A stretch of DNA of 43,442 bases from Gemmatimonadota bacterium (GTDB lineage: Bacteria; Gemmatimonadota; Gemmatimonadetes; Gemmatimonadales; GWC2-71-9): the NCBI GenBank assembly GCA_003221005.1, contig QHTZ01000073.1, forward strand, positions 1-43,442, read 5' to 3'. Below the pieces are notes generated by a model that worked only from the letters and a program-made list of their open reading frames with translations, was not told where the DNA came from and did no database searches. The first letter of the stretch is position 1; each line of letters opens with the position of its first letter. Positions 1 to 5,695 of the stretch are shown here, piece after piece. A program made the translations under genes and the position numbers.

Positions 1-43
1 CCGGTTTTCAAGACCGGTGCCTTAGCCGTTCGGCCAGCCCTCC
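1..43 (-). tRNA. tRNA-Ser(UGA), 5' part (3' part lies beyond the window start)
   Basis: Minus strand reads GGAGGGCTGGCCGAACGGCTAAGGCACCGGTCTTGAAAACCGG: acceptor 5' strand, D-arm, anticodon stem CCGGT/ACCGG around loop CTTGAAA (anticodon TGA). Confidence 0.92.
6..43 (+). repeat. att core copy 1 (38 bp, part of the intact tRNA-Ser)
   Basis: TTTCAAGACCGGTGCCTTAGCCGTTCGGCCAGCCCTCC, identical to 1885-1922. Confidence 0.95.
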
Positions 44-98
44 AAAACCAACGACCGCAGGAACTTCCGCCGTCGGCGCGCCCGTGCTCGGGGCCGTT

Positions 99-118
99 TG
101 CCCACAGTCCTGCCCACA
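99..118 (+). repeat. Tandem TGCCCACA pair, putative integrase arm-type sites (left arm)
   Basis: TGCCCACA at 99-106 and 111-118; the same pair recurs at 1749-1767. Confidence 0.7.
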
Positions 119-277
119 TGGCGCGCCCCGAACCGCGATCAGCCGACAGGTGCTGGAGGGAAAGTAGTTGCATCCCCCTCGCGCCCGCCACCCGGCGTAG
201 AGGGGGCAAGCCGCGGCGACTCGCCGCCTGACAGGCAGCGACGCCCGCGTTGACCCTGTTTCTGTCTCTGTTGGGTT

Positions 278-982
278 CTAGCGCGCGGCTCTACCACGGC
301 CAAGGAGCGTCGCGGAGAGTCCCAGCGAAAAGACCAGATCGTTCTGGAACCCTCCTCCCGAGATCTTGTAATGGTGGTCCTCGAGGTCCGCCCGAATCGC
401 AAGGGAGGGGGCGAGCATGAAACGAGTAACCACCCCGAGCACCGGCCCCCAGCCGGTAGTACTCCCAATGAGGACGTCGTAGGCGAGTCGGGATGCGTTC
501 AGGGCGGCGTACGCGTCACCGCCGTGAGCGACGAACGAGGCGCCAGCCGCGACGTAGAACGACGTGCGTACCATGCGCGGCGTGAGGTTGACCAAGACCC
601 GGGCGCTCCCTGCGACGATGCTTGCAGACGTGTCGCGCAGGGAGGTACTGGGCACTCTTGCTCGACTGCCTGAATAGCCCACCGACAGGTCAATTCCGGT
701 CCGGTTGTTTAACCATGCGGTGATCCGCCCTCCTACGGCAGGGCTCGTCTCCTGTCTCATTGTCCCGTCGCAGAAGTTCGGGACGCCACTAACGACTTGA
801 AGAGTGCAGTTAGTGCCGGGTGCGGGCCAAAGGCGCGCTGACGTCGGCACGTAGGCGCCCGCAAACGGCGTGAACTCTACCCTTACCTGTGAGGAGCACG
901 GCCGCGCGGTGGCGAGCGTTGCCGCGACGACGATGTTGAGCGCCCTCAGCGCCACGCTGTGCTTGAAGGTTGCATAGTCCAT
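278..982 (-). CDS. Secreted outer-membrane beta-barrel-like protein (element cargo)
   Basis: GAAGGAGGGG RBS before ATG 982; hydrophobic N-terminal signal-like segment; alternating beta-strand segments (VEFTPFAGAY, GGRITAW, FYVAAGASF, LAIRADLED, LVFSLGLS). Confidence 0.65.
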   Translation of the reverse strand: MDYATFKHSVALRALNIVVAATLATARPCSSQVRVEFTPFAGAYVPTSARLWPAPGTNCTLQVVSGVPNFCDGTMRQETSPAVGGRITAWLNNRTGIDLSVGYSGSRARVPSTSLRDTSASIVAGSARVLVNLTPRMVRTSFYVAAGASFVAHGGDAYAALNASRLAYDVLIGSTTGWGPVLGVVTRFMLAPSLAIRADLEDHHYKISGGGFQNDLVFSLGLSATLLGRGRAAR

Positions 983-1050
983 GGTCCCCTCCTTCGTCAG
1001 ATCCATCATCGCGGGGCTACCTCTCAGTTACCACCCCAACGGAGGCGGCC

Positions 1051-1521
1051 TCACCTGAGAATCCAGCCCCTTGTGAATCGAACCAGCGGACCGTCCGCGG
1101 CATTGCGAGCGCCACGCGGAACCGTAAGAGCAAGTCCACAAGAGCGGCCCAAGCGTCGTCCCTGCACGTTCGCGTGCGCGGGCGTCACCCGATCCACCCG
1201 CAGATCGCCTAGCTCGTTCACGAAATAGGCGCGAATTGCTTTGAGGGAATCGGCGTAGCTAGCGATCGTGCCGGCGGCCTTGGCGGGCATCTCGTCGCGC
1301 TCGAACTGCGTCAGTAGCTCGCTCACGCGCACCGCGGTCGGCCGCCCTGGGCCGTGGCGGTCGGCTTGGCGCGCTAGCTCGGCCTCCTTCTGTTTGGCCC
1401 ACGTCTGCGCCTCCCGCACGTCCTCGCAGCGGAGCGTGAAACTGTGGCGCGTGCCGGCGACGCACAATCGGACTTCAAAGCCGCGACCGTGGCGGCGGAC
1501 GTTCCCGGAATGACGGGGCAT
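1051..1521 (-). pseudogene. Truncated tyrosine integrase (arm-binding and core-binding N-terminal domains only)
   Basis: RBS GAAGGAG before ATG 1521. MPRHSGNVRRHGRGFEVRL...REAQTWAKQKEAEL...VSELLTQF...AGTIASY...LGDLRVDRVTPAH resembles integrase N-termini; the sequence then becomes unrecognisable and stops at 156 aa with no R-H-R-Y catalytic domain. Confidence 0.75.
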
Positions 1522-1526
1522 GGGGG

Positions 1527-1700
1527 CTACTCCTTCTGCCGCAGCAGGTCCCGCAGAGCCTGCTCGACGAGGCGTTGAATAGGGATGCGGCCCCGCACCG
1601 CGCGCAACTTCAACCGCTGGTGCAGGTCGGCGGGCACTCGGACCGAGAGCAGCACTAGGGGCTTGGCGTCCGATATGGGCTTCCGCTGTTGTGGAGTCAT
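1527..1700 (-). CDS. Ribbon-helix-helix DNA-binding protein (57 aa)
   Basis: MTPQQRKPISDAKPLVLLSVRVPADLHQRLKLRAVRGRIPIQRLVEQALRDLLRQKE has the strand-helix-helix pattern of Arc/CopG-like proteins; stop codon abuts the integrase RBS. Confidence 0.75.
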   Translation of the reverse strand: MTPQQRKPISDAKPLVLLSVRVPADLHQRLKLRAVRGRIPIQRLVEQALRDLLRQKE

Positions 1701-1718
1701 GCCAGAAAGCTGGCATGA
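1697..1718. promoter_or_regulatory. Palindromic operator candidate overlapping the RHH start codon
   Basis: TCATGCCAG-AAAG-CTGGCATGA, perfect 9-bp inverted repeat. Confidence 0.55.
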
Positions 1719-1748
1719 TGGCTTAGGACGCGCAAGGCCCCAGCACGC

Positions 1749-1767
1749 TGCCCACATTCTGCCCACA
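1749..1767 (+). repeat. Tandem TGCCCACA pair, putative integrase arm-type sites (right arm)
   Basis: TGCCCACA at 1749-1756 and 1760-1767, same orientation as 99-118. Confidence 0.7.
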
Positions 1768-1790
1768 GACCGGGATAAACAGGTGCAATC

Positions 1791-1870
1791 AGACGCGACG
1801 AGACGCAACGGGAGGAACGGCGAAGCGGGTGTTGGGACAACGGGATGCAACGGAACGCCACGGGACGCAA
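1791..1870 (+). repeat. 10-bp-period imperfect direct repeats next to the att core
   Basis: AGACGCGACG/AGACGCAACG (1791-1810) and CGGGATGCAA/CGGAACGCCA/CGGGACGCAA (1841-1870). Confidence 0.6.
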
Positions 1871-1884
1871 AACGCTGGTTAGGC

Positions 1885-1922
1885 TTTCAAGACCGGTGCC
1901 TTAGCCGTTCGGCCAGCCCTCC
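1885..1922 (-). repeat. att core copy 2: displaced 5' half of tRNA-Ser ending at the anticodon loop
   Basis: Identical to 6-43; on the minus strand it diverges from tRNA right after CTTGAAA. Confidence 0.93.
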
Positions 1923-1929
1923 CGGACAC

Positions 1930-1935
1930 AACATA
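1930..1935 (-). promoter_or_regulatory. Putative -10 box (TATGTT) of the original tRNA-Ser promoter
   Basis: TATGTT 7 nt upstream of G1 of the tRNA fragment. Confidence 0.5.
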
Positions 1936-1965
1936 GACGGGTAGAGGGGTAGGCGGGTAGACGGG
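1934..1965 (+). repeat. 4x octamer array TAGRSGGG
   Basis: TAGACGGG TAGAGGGG TAGGCGGG TAGACGGG. Confidence 0.85.
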
Positions 1966-1996
1966 TAGGTACGACGAAGCCACCAACCCGCCAAAC

Positions 1997-4143
1997 CTAT
2001 CGCTCGGCGTAGCTGGTGTTGTTGAACACCGAATCCGCGAGCGCGAGCGCCCGGCTTGAGAGCTGGGGATCTCTCGACTTGAGCGCCTGTCCCATCGCCT
2101 GGTAAATCAACCCATACAGCGCCGGGATGCCTTCCGACGGCCGATCGAGCCACCCACGGGGCCGGGATCGGGCGGCGGTGTGGGCGTGATACACGTCGAA
2201 CAGCAGGGCATTGGTGCGGCGCACGTTGACGAAGCCGAGCTGCCCCACCACCAGCATGCTGTCGGACGGCGCGATCGGCGCGTAGTGGAGCTTGCGCGCG
2301 AAGCCCTGTCCCTCGAGGTACCCCGTGAGCCCCATCTGGTCGGCGTAGAGTCCCACGGTACGCGAGAAATAGAATGGCCGTTTCCCTTCCTGGTCCTTGA
2401 TCGCCTGGAGCACGACGATGTCGGCCCGCTCGAGGTACTGGCGGCCGAGCAGCTGGGGGTCGAGTGACGTCGCGATCGTCCCCAGCTTGACGACCGTCTT
2501 CTGCTCGAGCACGTAGTACGGTTGCAGCGCGGCGAGCTGGTCGTCGGAGAAGCTGAGCACGCGGCCGGTGGGCCGGGGCCACGACCGGCCGCGGTACACC
2601 GCGGGCGCCGTAGCTGAGTCGAACGAGAACACCGACCGGCGCTGCATCTGACGCAGGTACCAGTCGGTGTTGCCGAGCGAAAGATTCAGCACCACGACAT
2701 CCTTGCGGATGCCCTCCACCTCCTGGGCGAGGCAGTGAGGCGGTTTCCGGCGAGCGGCACGATGGCCAGGAGCAGCATGGGCGTCATGAATAGCCAGCGC
2801 CGTTCGTCGCTCGGCTCCCGCTCTGCGAGCCACTCCCGTCCCCACTCCATCAACGTCGCCAAACCGATCCCCACCCACACGCCCCACAGCGCGAACGACG
2901 CGATGTAGAAGTAATCGCGCTCGCGTACCTCACGCGCGAGCTGCGGCCGGTCGGGGTACTGCGAGAAGCCGTATTTGAAATTGAGGTAGAAGATCAGGAT
3001 GAACGTCAGCGTTACCATGAGCGCGGTCATGGCGAGTGCCGCGCGCTTGTCGGCCTTCCACTGGCGCCAGGCGCCCAGCAGTCCGATGCAGCCGAAGATC
3101 ACCGCCAGGCCCCGCTGGATCGATGGGCTCCAATCGCGGCCCCACTGCCAGCTGAAGTACTGGAGCCACATGCCGATCTGAGCGAATAACGTTGCCTGCC
3201 GCTCGGTCAGCGGTGGCTTCCCGTACTGCTCGCGGTTCAGCACCGCCTTGAGCGCGTCCCAGGTGGTCGGCTCGCCTTCGTTGATGGGGGGGTAGAAGTG
3301 CGCCCGGATCGGCAGGTAGGCCCACACACTCACCCCGACGACCGCCACCCCGAGCGCGAGTCCCGCGAACCGCAGGTGCCCGGTTCGATTCGCGACCCAA
3401 CCCGCCAGGGTCAGGATCGCGATTGCCCCGACCCGAAGCGCGGTTCCGTGAGGATCGCTATACGCCCAGAACACGGCGTACGCTCCGCCTAGAACGAATC
3501 CCGTCACCAGCAAGCGAACGACGTGCTCCTGTACCGGCTCCTCGGTCACCATGTAGGCCAGCACCGCGGGCGCTACGAGCAGGCCCATCAAGTGGTTCGT
3601 CGCGGTCAGGGCGAGCAGGTAGACGATCGCGAGGATGTAATGATCGCGCCGGTCCGCGGTCGGCTGATCACCCCAGCGCACCACGAGCCACAGCACGACC
3701 GCGATCGAGCAGAGGCTCACCGTGTACACCTTCTCGTTCACGACCGACTGGTTCCACACCGTGAACGCGGCCGCCGAGCAGATCGCGGCCGCGAGCGCGG
3801 CGAGCCGGCGGGGCCAGACCATCGGGACGATGGGCCGGAGCCAGCGCTCGCCGATCAGGAACCAGCACCCCGCCGCGACGGCGCTCGTGAACGCGGCGAA
3901 CAGATTGACCCGCTCGGCGTAGGCCGTCACCCAAGGGATCAGCCCCCACGTGTGCGCCAGCAACACGAACAGCGGGTTCCCGGGCGGGTGCGGGATACCG
4001 AGGACGTACGACGCCGCGATGTACTCGGAGGTGTCCCAGAATTGCGTCGTCGGCGCGAGCGTGGCGACATACAGCAACAGCGCGCCCAGCGCGACCACGC
4101 CGGCCATCACGTACGGCGGCTTCTGCTCCAGGGTCTCGTCCAT
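1997..4143 (-). pseudogene. DUF2723/TMEM260-like polytopic membrane (GT-C type) protein, frameshifted near 2729
   Basis: N-terminal ORF has TLAPTTQFWDTSEY...GIPHPPGNPLF and REVRERDYFY; the C-terminal part (AQEVEGIRKDVVVLNLSLGNTDWY) continues in another frame. Confidence 0.75.
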
Positions 4144-4156
4144 GGGTCCCGGGTAT

Positions 4157-5695
4157 TTAGTGACGGAACTGGCGCAGGCCGGTCAGCACCATCGCCAGGC
4201 CATGCCGGTCGGCGGCCTCAATGACCGGGGCGTCGTTCACCGAGCCGCCCGGCTGGATGATCGCCCGCACACCCGCCTGGGCCGCTTCCTCTACCCCGTC
4301 GGGGAACGGAAAGAACGCGTCAGAAGCTAACACGGCGCCCGCTGGATCGTGGCCCTCCCGGCGCGCCTTGTGGACGGCGAGGAACGATGCGTCCACCCGG
4401 CTCATCTGACCTGCGCCGATCCCGATCGCGGCCTCGTCGCGCGCCAGCAGGATGGCGTTCGACTTGACCGACCCGACCGCCGCCCATGCGAAGCGCAGGT
4501 CGCGCCACTCGGCCTCGGCCGGCGCGCGCCGCGTCGCGACGTTCCACTGTCGTTCGTCCATCGCAGCCTCGGGCCGGGCCCGCTCCTGCACCAGGAAGCC
4601 GCCCCGAATTCGCTTCAAGTCCCACCCCGCCGGCGCGGCGAAGGGGAGCGTCACGACTCGCAGGTTCTTCTTCTCTTTGAACCGGGCGAGGGCGTCCTCC
4701 CGGAACCGCGGCGCGACGACCACCTCGACGAACAGCTCGTGCATCGCGTCGGCCGTCGCGCGGTCCACTTCCGTGTTGAAGGCGATCACCGAGCCGAACG
4801 CGGAAGTGCGATCGGTCGCGAGCGCGCGGGTGTACGCCTCCGCGGGCGTGCGTCCGAGCGCGATGCCGCACGGCGTCGTGTGCTTGATGATCGCGCAGGC
4901 CACCCGGTCCTTCCCCATACCCGACCAGGGCGCCACCGCGGTCACCGCGGCGTCCAGATCGAGCAGGTTGTTGAAGGAGAGGTCCTTGCCGTGGAGCTGG
5001 CGCAGCTCGCGGATCCCGGGCTCGGCGGTCGCGTACAGCGCGGCGCGCTGGTGCGGGTTTTCGCCATAGCGCAGCGCCTGCTGGCGTGCGAGCACGAGCG
5101 TGAGCGAGGGCGGCAGCGCGTCGCCGTCCCGCGCCAGGTAGTCCAGGATCGCGGCGTCGTACGCCGCGGTGTGGGCGAACACCTTCGTGGCGAGGGTCCG
5201 GCGCAGCTCCGGGGTCACGCCCCCGGCGCGGAGCTCGGCGATCACTCGGGCGTAATCGTCCGGATCCACCACGACGATCACGTCGGCGTGGTTCTTCGCC
5301 GCCGAGCGGAGCATTGACGGGCCGCCGATGTCGATCTGCTCGATCCCCTGCTCGAACGTTGTGCCGGGACGCGCGACCGTCTCACGGAACGGGTAGAGGT
5401 TGACGGCGACGAGATCGATCGGCGTGATGGCGTGCTGCGCCAGCGCCGCGCGGTCTCCCGCGTGGCCCCGTCGGGCCAGCAGTCCGCCGTGCACCTTGGG
5501 GTGGAGCGTCTTCACGCGCCCGTCCATGATCTCGGGGAATCCCGTGACCTGCTCGATCGGGATCACGGCGATGCCGGCCTGGCGTAGCGCGTCGGCCGTT
5601 CCTCCCGTCGAGACGATCTCCCAGCCCAGCTCCGCGAGCGCACGCGCGAAGTCCGCGATGCCGCGCTTATCCGAGACCGACAACAGCGCTCTCAC
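4157..5695 (-). CDS. purH: Bifunctional AICAR transformylase/IMP cyclohydrolase
   Basis: [54 protein letters not shown]-terminal RQFRH; GTGA overlap with the upstream stop. Confidence 0.97.

What the first reader, a model, noticed from the sequence alone, without database searches (positions are those of the whole stretch)
6..1922. Mini integrative element that duplicates the 5' half of tRNA-Ser instead of the 3' half
Seen: two identical 38-bp copies (6-43, 1885-1922) equal to tRNA-Ser(UGA) from G1 through the anticodon loop. Only the left copy continues into the anticodon stem. Established: tRNA-targeting tyrosine integrases usually carry the 3' fragment, so the host promoter stays with the intact tRNA. 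Inference: this element's attP carried the 5' half and crossover occurred in the anticodon loop, so the intact tRNA is rebuilt at the far end, separated from its native promoter. The whole unit is only ~1.9 kb, which suggests a compact or non-autonomous class of element.
Basis: partly seen in the sequence, partly recalled or inferred. Interest (0 to 1): 0.85.

Follow-up and report, generated by a model that had tools for sequence, protein, structure and literature searches.

The report
Decayed island carrying tRNA-Ser 5′ half
A soil bacterium carries the 1.8-kb wreck of a mobile element that inserted into a serine tRNA gene and rebuilt it with its own copy of the gene's front half, a rare but already documented way of integrating.

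Summary
Window 6-43 and 1885-1922 are identical 38-bp copies of tRNA-Ser(UGA) from G1 to the last base of the anticodon loop. The window is a whole MAG contig that stops inside the left copy. An independent metagenome contig (L036) is 100% identical over window 1-2100, runs 252 nt further and shows that the left copy is an intact tRNA.

The right copy lies in the native context. A same-genus genome (G001) has the empty site: the DUF2723 gene followed directly by an intact tRNA-Ser.

Between the copies lie an RHH gene, the first ~117 codons of a 384-aa tyrosine integrase with no catalytic domain, a host-like outer-membrane protein gene, and a pair of TGTGGGCA repeats inside each end. So this is a decayed, non-autonomous remnant, not a compact class.

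Relatives with full-length integrases show the same geometry: four metagenome junctions and three complete elements of 7.9-15.8 kb in the same phylum. In every complete case the repeat runs exactly from G1 to the end of the anticodon loop. Sister integrases use the usual 3′-half geometry.

Islands with a 5′ tRNA fragment are known (159 of 3919 in Islander). This is a new member of a known kind.

The parts
1..43 (-). First 43 nt (G1 = position 43) of the intact, rebuilt tRNA-Ser(UGA). The contig end cuts it at tRNA position 43. Positions 6-43 are the element-borne 5' half, one copy of the 38-bp repeat.
   Evidence: The full 84-nt tRNA is seen in L036:4080-4163, which is 100% identical to window 1-2100.
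44..277 (-). Integrase-distal arm of the element. It lies directly upstream of the rebuilt tRNA. It holds an arm-type repeat pair (TGCCCACA on the + strand at 99-106 and 111-118, i.e. 63 and 75 nt from the element end) and a GAAGTT box at -24 from G1.
278..1009 (-). 243-aa ORF with a signal-peptide-like start and a weak OMP beta-barrel match. It is host-like: there is an 84% aa paralogue on contig C105 and 29-37% homologues in 6 of 6 same-genus genomes. It was not seen in the related elements.
   Evidence: (PF13505, E 4.7e-05, below the curated cut-off).
1051..1521 (-). Integrase remnant: a 156-aa ORF. About the first 114-117 residues are 68-78% identical to 384-387-aa tyrosine integrases. Homology fades by window ~1177-1087. 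No catalytic domain remains.
1527..1700 (-). 57-aa ribbon-helix-helix (Arc/CopG-like) gene immediately upstream of the integrase. It is conserved in the related elements.
1749..1767 (-). Arm-type repeat pair (TGCCCACA on the + strand at 1749-1756 and 1760-1767), +118 and +129 from the junction in tRNA orientation.
   Evidence: These two and the two at 99-118 are all 4 occurrences in the window.
1768..1884 (-). Spacer between the arm pair and the core, rich in TTGCG-like repeats. Element DNA begins at 1884, directly after the anticodon loop.
1885..1922 (-). Displaced native 5' fragment of tRNA-Ser(UGA), positions 1-38. It is the second copy of the repeat and is not a functional tRNA.
1934..1969 (-). 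Native tRNA upstream region with 8-nt periodic repeats. The same repeats precede other tRNA genes of the MAG and the tRNA-Ser(UGA) of G001 and G003.
1997..4143 (-). Host flank: a DUF2723 / TMEM260-like gene. In this contig it is split into two ORFs by a ~112-nt deletion near 2727-2729.

Best explanation
Window 44-1884 is 1,841 bp flanked by two 38-bp repeats. It is the decayed remnant of an integrative element whose tyrosine integrase recombines in the anticodon loop of tRNA genes.

In this lineage the element's attP carries the 5' half of tRNA-Ser(UGA), from G1 to the end of the anticodon loop, instead of the usual 3' half. Integration split the host gene that follows the DUF2723 gene. The native upstream region and native 5' half were left as a dead fragment at 1885-1922. 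The element-borne 5' half (6-43) was fused to the native 3' half, giving the only intact tRNA-Ser(UGA), which now lies 1.84 kb from its old upstream region.

Later an internal deletion or rearrangement removed the integrase from about codon 117 onward, together with any cargo. A host-like outer-membrane protein gene now sits there. The remnant keeps both att sites, both arm-site pairs and the RHH gene, but it cannot excise on its own.

Shown: the repeat, the geometry, the empty site, the integrase truncation, and the same geometry in relatives. Inferred: crossover within the 7-nt loop, arm-site function, the order of events, and a promoter supplied by the element.
For: (1) The 38-bp repeat is exact and equals tRNA positions 1-38.

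(2) L036 is 100% identical to window 1-2100 and extends 252 nt further. It shows an intact tRNA-Ser(UGA) and then a convergent small ORF, not another element. L037 is 99.8% identical and crosses the fragment junction. A 1901-nt Logan unitig of run X1 covers the element from inside one repeat to inside the other with 0 differences. Pieces from runs X4 and X5, which belong to other studies, cross the truncated-integrase/OMP join.

(3) Empty site: G001 (same genus) has the DUF2723 gene followed directly by an intact tRNA-Ser(UGA), with the same upstream repeats. The interior 44-1884 was not found in any of the 40 relatives searched.

(4) The ORF at 1051-1521 matches residues 1 to ~117-150 of 8 integrases of 379-387 aa that carry PF00589. 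In P0001 the catalytic domain lies at residues 195-367. No remainder was found in the window or the MAG.

(5) All 4 TGCCCACA occurrences in the 43-kb window are two pairs just inside the two ends, against 0.9 expected. Pairs at the same spacing (+118/+129, and 60-100 nt before G1) but with different motifs occur in the complete relatives L069 and L071, and by eye in L066.

(6) Same geometry in relatives. L029, L030, L032 and L034 have full-length integrases 69-75% identical to P0001. Each has a 5' half of another tRNA-Ser(UGA) ending exactly at the loop, then homologous element DNA. Complete elements exist in G125 (Ser-GCU, 39-bp repeat, 15,750 bp), G126 (Cys, 37 bp, 9,269 bp) and G113 (Ser-GCU, 39 bp, 7,898 bp). 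In each, the identity block runs from G1 (give or take 1-2 nt) to the last loop base.
Against: - The MAG contig itself ends 5 nt past the repeat, so the far junction with a whole tRNA rests on one contig (L036).
- Logan unitigs (k=31) cannot bridge a 38-bp repeat. The read data therefore cannot separate the integrated form from an empty site plus a free circle.
- The two 38-bp copies are identical, so which copy is element-borne is inferred from the flanks only.
- No sigma-70-like promoter was found upstream of the rebuilt tRNA. Its expression is untested.
- How the OMP gene came to replace the integrase 3' part is unknown.
- The far ends of the closest full-length relatives (L029-L034) were not on their contigs.
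Confidence: 0.85

Rival explanations
1. The 1.9-kb unit is a still-mobile, non-autonomous mini-element (cis-mobilisable, CIME-like) that is excised and integrated in trans by a full-length integrase of a related element.
For: Both att sites are perfect: identical 38-bp cores, both arm-site pairs, and the RHH gene is intact. Full-length integrases at 68-78% identity over the retained N-terminus, with the same TGTGGGCAG arm motif, exist in soil metagenome contigs.
Against: No full-length close relative was found in the MAG, which is 93.9% complete. Only 26-32% identical integrases were found, on C10 and C125. Only one copy and one site were seen. The interior was not found in 40 relatives. The related full-length elements sit in hosts with a different tRNA-Ser(UGA) sequence. 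Neither a circle junction nor an empty site can be detected with k=31 unitigs.
Confidence: 0.12
2. The repeat and the small 'element' are an assembly artefact or chimera created at a repeated tRNA sequence.
For: The contig ends 5 nt beyond the repeat. The MAG shows duplicated tRNA clusters that suggest mixed strains. C75 differs from L036 by a ~112-nt indel in the DUF2723 gene.
Against: Three separate assemblies (C75, L036, L037) agree across the fragment junction, and L036 agrees across both junctions. Unitigs from 4 runs of 4 studies carry the interior, including the integrase/OMP join. The architecture matches complete elements in other genomes base for base at the junction position.
Confidence: 0.02
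3. There is no mobile element. A local duplication of the tRNA 5' half, or a decayed tandem tRNA gene, happens to have unrelated genes in between.
For: tRNA genes are often tandemly duplicated, and the MAG has tRNA clusters.
Against: The interval carries an integrase remnant, an RHH gene and paired arm-type repeats. The identity block starts at G1 and stops exactly at the loop end, as it does in 3 complete elements. The same-genus genome G001 has the uninterrupted site.
Confidence: 0.01

Closest known systems
Genomic islands with a 5' tDNA fragment, as catalogued by Islander (PMC4383910; I read passages and Table 1)
   Same: An intact tDNA plus a cognate end fragment in direct orientation, with the 5' fragment upstream of the intact gene, a tyrosine integrase inside, and an anticodon-centred attachment site. 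Islander counts 159 such islands against 3760 with a 3' fragment.
   Different: Here the integrase is only a 30% N-terminal remnant, and the unit (1,841 bp) is below Islander's 2-kb length filter, so that pipeline would not call it. The host is an uncultured soil lineage.
[quoted passage not shown]
   Same: [quoted passage not shown]
   Different: The paper itself is not held. I saw only the reference and the citing sentence, so its host, target tRNA and details are not compared here.
CalSub-E1 of Ca. [quoted passage not shown]
   Same: Integration into the 5'-distal part of a tRNA-Ser gene, described there as considerably less frequent than 3'-distal integration.
   Different: That host is archaeal. 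The integrase relationship was not tested here.
Klebsiella islands integrated at the 5' end of tRNA-Arg arg2 (bioRxiv 10.1101/2020.11.02.365908, passages read)
   Same: The islands lie upstream of the target tDNA, with a repeat covering the 5' part of the gene.
   Different: There the site covers the 5' acceptor half, D-stem and D-loop. Here it runs through the anticodon loop.
Cis-mobilisable elements (CIMEs): ICE derivatives that keep attL and attR but lack the recombination module (recalled, no call)
   Same: Intact att sites flank DNA without a working integrase.
   Different: Trans-mobilisation is untested here. The parent elements show no conjugation genes: 10 ORFs downstream of the integrase in L030 and L033 had no Pfam match.
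Lambda-type attP with arm-type integrase sites on both sides of a core (textbook knowledge)
   Same: Tandem short repeats about 100-130 bp on either side of the crossover, and an integrase with an N-terminal domain ahead of the SAM-like core-binding domain.
   Different: Binding was not tested. The motif pair next to the RHH gene could instead be an operator.

Membership tests
tRNA-gene integrative island, 5'-fragment configuration | Intact tDNA and a cognate fragment in direct orientation on one replicon | tested here: met
   L036 holds the fragment at 2201-2238 and an intact tRNA-Ser(UGA) at 4080-4163, on the same strand. The window holds the fragment and the first 43 nt of the tRNA.
tRNA-gene integrative island, 5'-fragment configuration | The fragment is an end fragment (it starts at G1) and lies upstream of the intact gene | tested here: met
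   The identity block is exactly positions 1-38, and the fragment lies on the native-upstream side.
tRNA-gene integrative island, 5'-fragment configuration | Contains a tyrosine integrase gene | tested here: inconclusive
   Only residues 1 to ~117 of a 384-aa integrase remain, and the catalytic PF00589 domain is absent. It is a remnant of a member, not a functional member.
tRNA-gene integrative island, 5'-fragment configuration | An uninterrupted target site exists in relatives | tested here: met
   G001 has the DUF2723 gene followed directly by an intact tRNA-Ser(UGA). The interior was not found in 40 relatives.
tRNA-gene integrative island, 5'-fragment configuration | Length of at least 2 kb (Islander's operational filter) | tested here: not met
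   1,841 bp lie between the repeats. The filter is quoted in PMC4383910.
tRNA-gene integrative island, 5'-fragment configuration | Excision to a circle and regeneration of attB | not testable with these tools
   Only k=31 unitigs were available, and they cannot bridge the 38-bp repeat.
Tyrosine recombinase (PF00589) | Catalytic domain with the R..HxxR..Y residues | tested here: not met
   The window ORF has no PF00589 match. The homologues carry it, e.g. P0001 at residues 195-367.
Cis-mobilisable (CIME-like) element | Both att sites intact and no own recombinase | tested here: met
Cis-mobilisable (CIME-like) element | Mobilised in trans by a related integrase | not testable with these tools
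   No close full-length integrase was found in the MAG. No junction reads were available.

The most novel reading that the evidence does not exclude
In this phylum, one clade of anticodon-loop tyrosine integrases has switched repeatedly between carrying the 3' half and carrying the 5' half of its target tRNA. It does so by inserting in either orientation into the symmetric anticodon stem-loop. The same arm-site/RHH/integrase module abuts the loop from the 5' side in the window's clade and from the 3' side in its sister group. 5'-type elements also bring a tRNA-promoter-like box with their 5' half. On this reading, 5' usage is common in this lineage (9 of the 14 elements whose geometry could be read) rather than the ~4% exception seen in Islander. 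Remnants such as this one would leave an essential single-copy tRNA permanently driven by element DNA.
Probability: 0.5. Interest if true: 0.5.

Novelty: new member of a known kind. Interest (0 to 1): 0.35.

Why it matters
- It is a clean, fully mapped example of the minority '5'-half' mode of tRNA-gene integration: both junctions, an empty site and full-length relatives are all in hand.
- The host is an uncultured soil lineage.
- It points to an integrase clade in which 5'- and 3'-half usage alternate between sister lineages. That clade would be good material for asking how attP captures the other half of a tRNA gene and how the rebuilt gene gets a promoter.
- Practically, island finders that demand an intact integrase, a 3' fragment or more than 2 kb will miss such remnants. 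The dead 5' fragment should not be annotated as a tRNA.

Tried and rejected
- The search for related loci in genome contigs gave only one 27%-identical hit. In viral contigs it gave two distant hits of 31-32%. Neither was used.
- Pfam on 10 ORFs downstream of the integrase in L030 and L033 gave no family, so the kind of parent element (phage, plasmid or other) stays unknown. PHROGs gave nothing for the integrase remnant or the OMP ORF.
- The sigma-70 promoter scan of 1-2100 found 0 sites. That is not informative for this GC-rich organism.
- Read laying: all four runs are k=31 unitigs. They showed no joints, and they cannot bridge the 38-bp repeat, so they say nothing about a circle or an empty site. 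Unitig depths in X1 were 10.8 (flank), 8.51 (element) and 13.7 (downstream); I do not read these as copy ratios.
- G005 has DUF2723 and tRNA-Ser(UGA) 9.3 kb apart. I suspected an island there, but the interval holds ordinary genes (HtrA-like, M6 peptidase, TonB-dependent receptor, HEAT) and no integrase. I rejected it as a second case.
- No 5' fragment was found within 60 kb of the G316 integrase. No 3' fragment was found within 20 kb for G257. Their geometry is left undetermined.
- The arm motif of the 3'-type G242 element reads in the same direction relative to the tRNA as the window's. I therefore rest the 'flipped' argument only on the window clade versus L035/L038/L039, where the whole arm-RHH-integrase module can be aligned.
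- The [TG]ANNTT box test used a motif chosen after looking at the same 52 upstream regions, so its p-value is inflated.
- I did not determine the phylum name.
- Supplementary files of papers were not consulted. Islander's per-island tables might list related 5'-type islands.
- G020 is flagged unpublished. It enters only the tallies, and no specific claim rests on it.
Full report
**What is in the sequence.** The window is a complete contig of a 141-contig MAG (G000:C75:1-43442; 93.9% complete). On the minus strand it begins inside a tRNA gene. Positions 43 to 1 are the first 43 nt of tRNA-Ser(UGA): acceptor 5' strand, D arm, anticodon stem and loop, and the 5-nt 3' strand of the anticodon stem. 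An exact 38-bp copy of positions 6-43 lies at 1885-1922. A 37-nt stretch of it occurs twice in the window and never in 100 shuffles. The copy corresponds to tRNA positions 1-38, from G1 to the last base of the anticodon loop. After the loop the right copy runs into unrelated DNA. ARAGORN finds no tRNA-Ser in the window and no tRNA-Ser(UGA) in the whole MAG.

**Is the left copy a whole tRNA, and is the arrangement real?** A metagenome contig found through the integrase (L036, 4,374 bp) is 100% identical to window 1-2100 and runs 252 nt beyond the window start. It contains the fragment (2201-2238) and an intact 84-nt tRNA-Ser(UGA) (4080-4163). After that come 211 nt holding the end of a convergent small Cys-rich ORF, not another element.

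- L036 is a separate assembly. It differs from C75 by a ~112-nt indel in the DUF2723 gene.
- L037 (1,803 bp, 99.8% identical) also crosses the fragment junction.
- Twenty of the 22 soil-metagenome runs listed hold all or part of the stretch.
- I laid Logan unitigs from four of these runs, from four studies. In X1 a 1,901-nt unitig covers the element from 30 nt inside one repeat to 30 nt inside the other without a difference. In X4 and X5, pieces cross the join between the truncated integrase and the next gene.
- With k=31 these unitigs cannot bridge a 38-bp repeat. The integrated state therefore rests on C75, L036 and L037. A co-existing circle or empty site can be neither shown nor excluded.

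**Which side is native?** The right copy is preceded by 8-nt periodic repeats (1934-1969) and by the 3' end of a DUF2723/TMEM260-like gene. The same repeats precede several other tRNA genes of the MAG. In the same-genus genome G001, the DUF2723 gene, similar repeats and an intact tRNA-Ser(UGA) follow each other directly, colinear with the window from the gene to the tRNA's 5' part. This is the empty site. The interior 44-1884 matched nothing in the 40 relatives searched, apart from one 26-nt chance hit. The 3' half of the L036 tRNA is identical to that of G001, G003 and G004. So the fragment at 1885-1922 is the displaced native 5' half, and the upstream region of the intact gene (44 onward) is element DNA.

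**What lies between the copies (read on the minus strand, in tRNA orientation).**

- Directly after the fragment's loop comes a spacer with TTGCG-like repeats.
- A tandem pair of TGTGGGCA repeats sits at +118 and +129.
- A 57-aa ribbon-helix-helix gene follows (1700-1527; weak RHH_3, Arc and CopG matches).
- Then comes an ORF (1521-1051) whose first ~114-117 residues are 68-78% identical to eight 379-387-aa proteins carrying the PF00589 catalytic domain.
- In the full-length protein P0001 the catalytic domain occupies residues 195-367, and a weak SAM-like match lies at 82-129.
- In the window, homology fades between residues ~117 and 150. Nothing resembling the catalytic domain is found in any frame of 1-1230, and no close copy exists elsewhere in the MAG. 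Only 26-32% identical integrases occur, on C10 and C125.
- Next is a 243-aa ORF (1009-278) with a sub-threshold OMP beta-barrel match. It has an 84% aa paralogue on contig C105 beside an unrelated large ORF that I did not characterise. It has 29-37% homologues in all 6 same-genus genomes. It was not seen in the related elements, so it looks host-derived.
- Finally a second TGTGGGCA pair lies 75 and 63 nt before G1 of the intact tRNA.
- The four TGCCCACA matches in the 43-kb window are exactly these two pairs, against 0.9 expected.

**Relatives.** A metagenome scan with the integrase alignment returned 19 loci.

- In L029, L030, L032 and L034 the integrases are full-length and 69-75% identical to P0001. 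Upstream of each lies the 5' half (positions 1-39, 97% identical) of the tRNA-Ser(UGA) of another genus of the same family (G016). That half ends exactly at the loop and is followed by DNA homologous to the window's spacer, the same TGTGGGCAG pair and the RHH gene. ARAGORN finds no whole tRNA in these loci.
- In L035, L038 and L039 (52%, 62% and 37% identical to P0001 in their best matched segments) the same arm-RHH-integrase module abuts the reverse complement of the 3' half of tRNA-Ser(CGA), again exactly at the loop. This is the usual geometry, with the module turned round relative to the tRNA.

Searching 401 genomes of the phylum with P0001 gave 15 genomes with hits at E <= 1e-30, G000 included. 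After fetching flanks I found three complete 5'-type elements with full-length integrases:

| Genome and contig | Locus | Target tRNA | Repeat | Element length |
|---|---|---|---|---|
| G125:C106 | L066 | Ser(GCU) | 39 bp | 15,750 bp |
| G126:C3 | L069 | Cys(GCA) | 37 bp | 9,269 bp |
| G113:C4 | L071 | Ser(GCU) | 39 bp | 7,898 bp |

- A fourth 5'-type element runs off its contig (G345).
- In all of them the identity block starts at G1 (give or take 1-2 nt) and ends at the last anticodon-loop base.
- 3'-type cases in the same clade have blocks that start at the first loop base or one base before it: G242 (tRNA-Lys 31-74, 11.8 kb), G113:C7 (tRNA-Trp 33-75) and G005:C8 (tRNA-Cys 31-73).
- The only segment common to both kinds of block is the 7-nt loop. 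That is where tyrosine recombinases of this class would be expected to exchange strands, with the anticodon stem arms serving as inverted core sites. This is an inference from the Williams 2002 classification as summarised.
- L069 and L071 carry their own tandem repeat pairs at +118/+129 and at 82-97 nt before G1, with motifs different from the window's. L066, L068 and the 3'-type L074 show equivalent pairs.
- Conserved spacing with element-specific motifs is what arm-type integrase sites would look like. Binding is untested.

**Tree.** I built a maximum-likelihood tree of 19 integrases taken from the loci. Rows were not filtered beyond using only the aligned parts for three frameshifted or partial genes.

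- The window's close relatives (5'-type, Ser-UGA; 100/100 support) are sister to the 3'-type Ser-CGA group (91/90).
- The 5'-type G125 pairs with the 3'-type G005 (99/96).
- The tree is midpoint-rooted and deeper forks are weak, so I claim only that both geometries occur among close relatives. I make no claim about direction of change.
- Counting elements whose geometry could be read gives 9 of the 5'-type: the window, L029 and L030 (near-identical to each other), L032, L034, G345, G125, G126 and G113:C4. There are 5 of the 3'-type: L035, L038/L039, G005:C8, G242 and G113:C7.
- Ten further loci could not be read: L031, L033, G316, G257, G400, G098, G379, G056, G295 and G016.

**Promoter question.** The rebuilt tRNA has lost its native upstream region. 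No sigma-70 consensus was found. Looking at the 52 tRNA genes of the MAG, a [TG]ANNTT box occurs at -30..-6 in 20 of them, against 4.6% of random 25-mers. The motif was chosen post hoc, so the p-value is inflated. The native upstream has TATGTT at -13 and the element-borne upstream has GAAGTT at -24. In L066, L069 and L071 the element-borne and native upstream regions carry similar boxes at the same distance. This suggests, but does not show, that these elements bring a promoter along with the 5' half.

**Comparison with what is known.**

[quoted passage not shown] It cites Zhao & Williams 2002 and archaeal cases, and reports one element (CalSub-E1) in a tRNA-Ser gene (PMC6563490, passages).
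- Islander accepts 5' fragments upstream of the tDNA. Its Table 1 lists 159 such islands against 3760 with 3' fragments. It rejects candidates under 2 kb (PMC4383910, passages and table).
- A Klebsiella study reports islands at the 5' end of a tRNA-Arg gene (bioRxiv 10.1101/2020.11.02.365908, passages).
- The two Williams 2002 papers are not held. What I say of them comes from citing text and recall.
- I did not search for this particular integrase clade in the literature beyond.

**Verdict.** The unit is a decayed remnant, not a compact class. It has no catalytic integrase and carries a host-like gene in its place. The geometry is a known minority mode.

Noticed in passing
window ~2727-2729 (DUF2723/TMEM260-like gene, ORFs 1997-2887 and 2686-4143): C75 lacks about 112 nt that L036 and same-genus relatives have at this point. 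This splits the gene into two overlapping ORFs. It is either a real deletion variant or an assembly error.
   Followed up: partly
window 1934-1969; also G000 C38:42485-42519, C68:12563-12596, C45:35658-35693, C120:21489-21531: 8-nt periodic CTACCCGT-type repeats lie directly upstream of several tRNA genes of the MAG. They also precede tRNA-Ser(UGA) in G001 and G003. Their function is unknown.
   Followed up: partly
G000, upstream regions of its 52 tRNA genes: A [TG]ANNTT box occurs at -30..-6 in 20 of 52 tRNA genes against 4.6% of random 25-mers. It may be a -10-like promoter element of this lineage. The motif was chosen post hoc.
   Followed up: partly
G000 C105:1-328: The contig starts inside a paralogue (84% aa, 88% nt) of the element's OMP ORF. 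An unrelated large ORF follows, which I did not scan against any family library. The homology stops close to the ORF's stop codon.
   Followed up: partly
G000 C38:41923-43064 and C68:12479-13173: The MAG holds two copies of an Arg-Pro-Arg-Val-Met tRNA cluster, two tRNA-Ser(GCU) genes and two tRNA-Ser(CGA) genes. This may reflect two strains in the bin or a real duplication.
   Followed up: no
L072 (G016:C10) 1479-2577: An integrase C-terminal remnant (residues ~151-377) lies divergent from an intact tRNA-Ser(UGA) and a few hundred nt upstream of it. It looks like another decayed element of the same clade at the same tRNA.
   Followed up: no
L035 7850-7910: A tRNA-Ser-like sequence that seems to lack the anticodon arm lies 11 nt beyond the tRNA-Ser(CGA) 3' fragment. 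ARAGORN does not call it.
   Followed up: no
L036 4176-4373 (beyond the window start): A small ORF with two CxxC motifs is convergent on the tRNA and ends 12 nt after it. Weak (67-69% nt) relatives occur on G000 C106 and C4. The MAG has no contig that continues past the tRNA.
   Followed up: no
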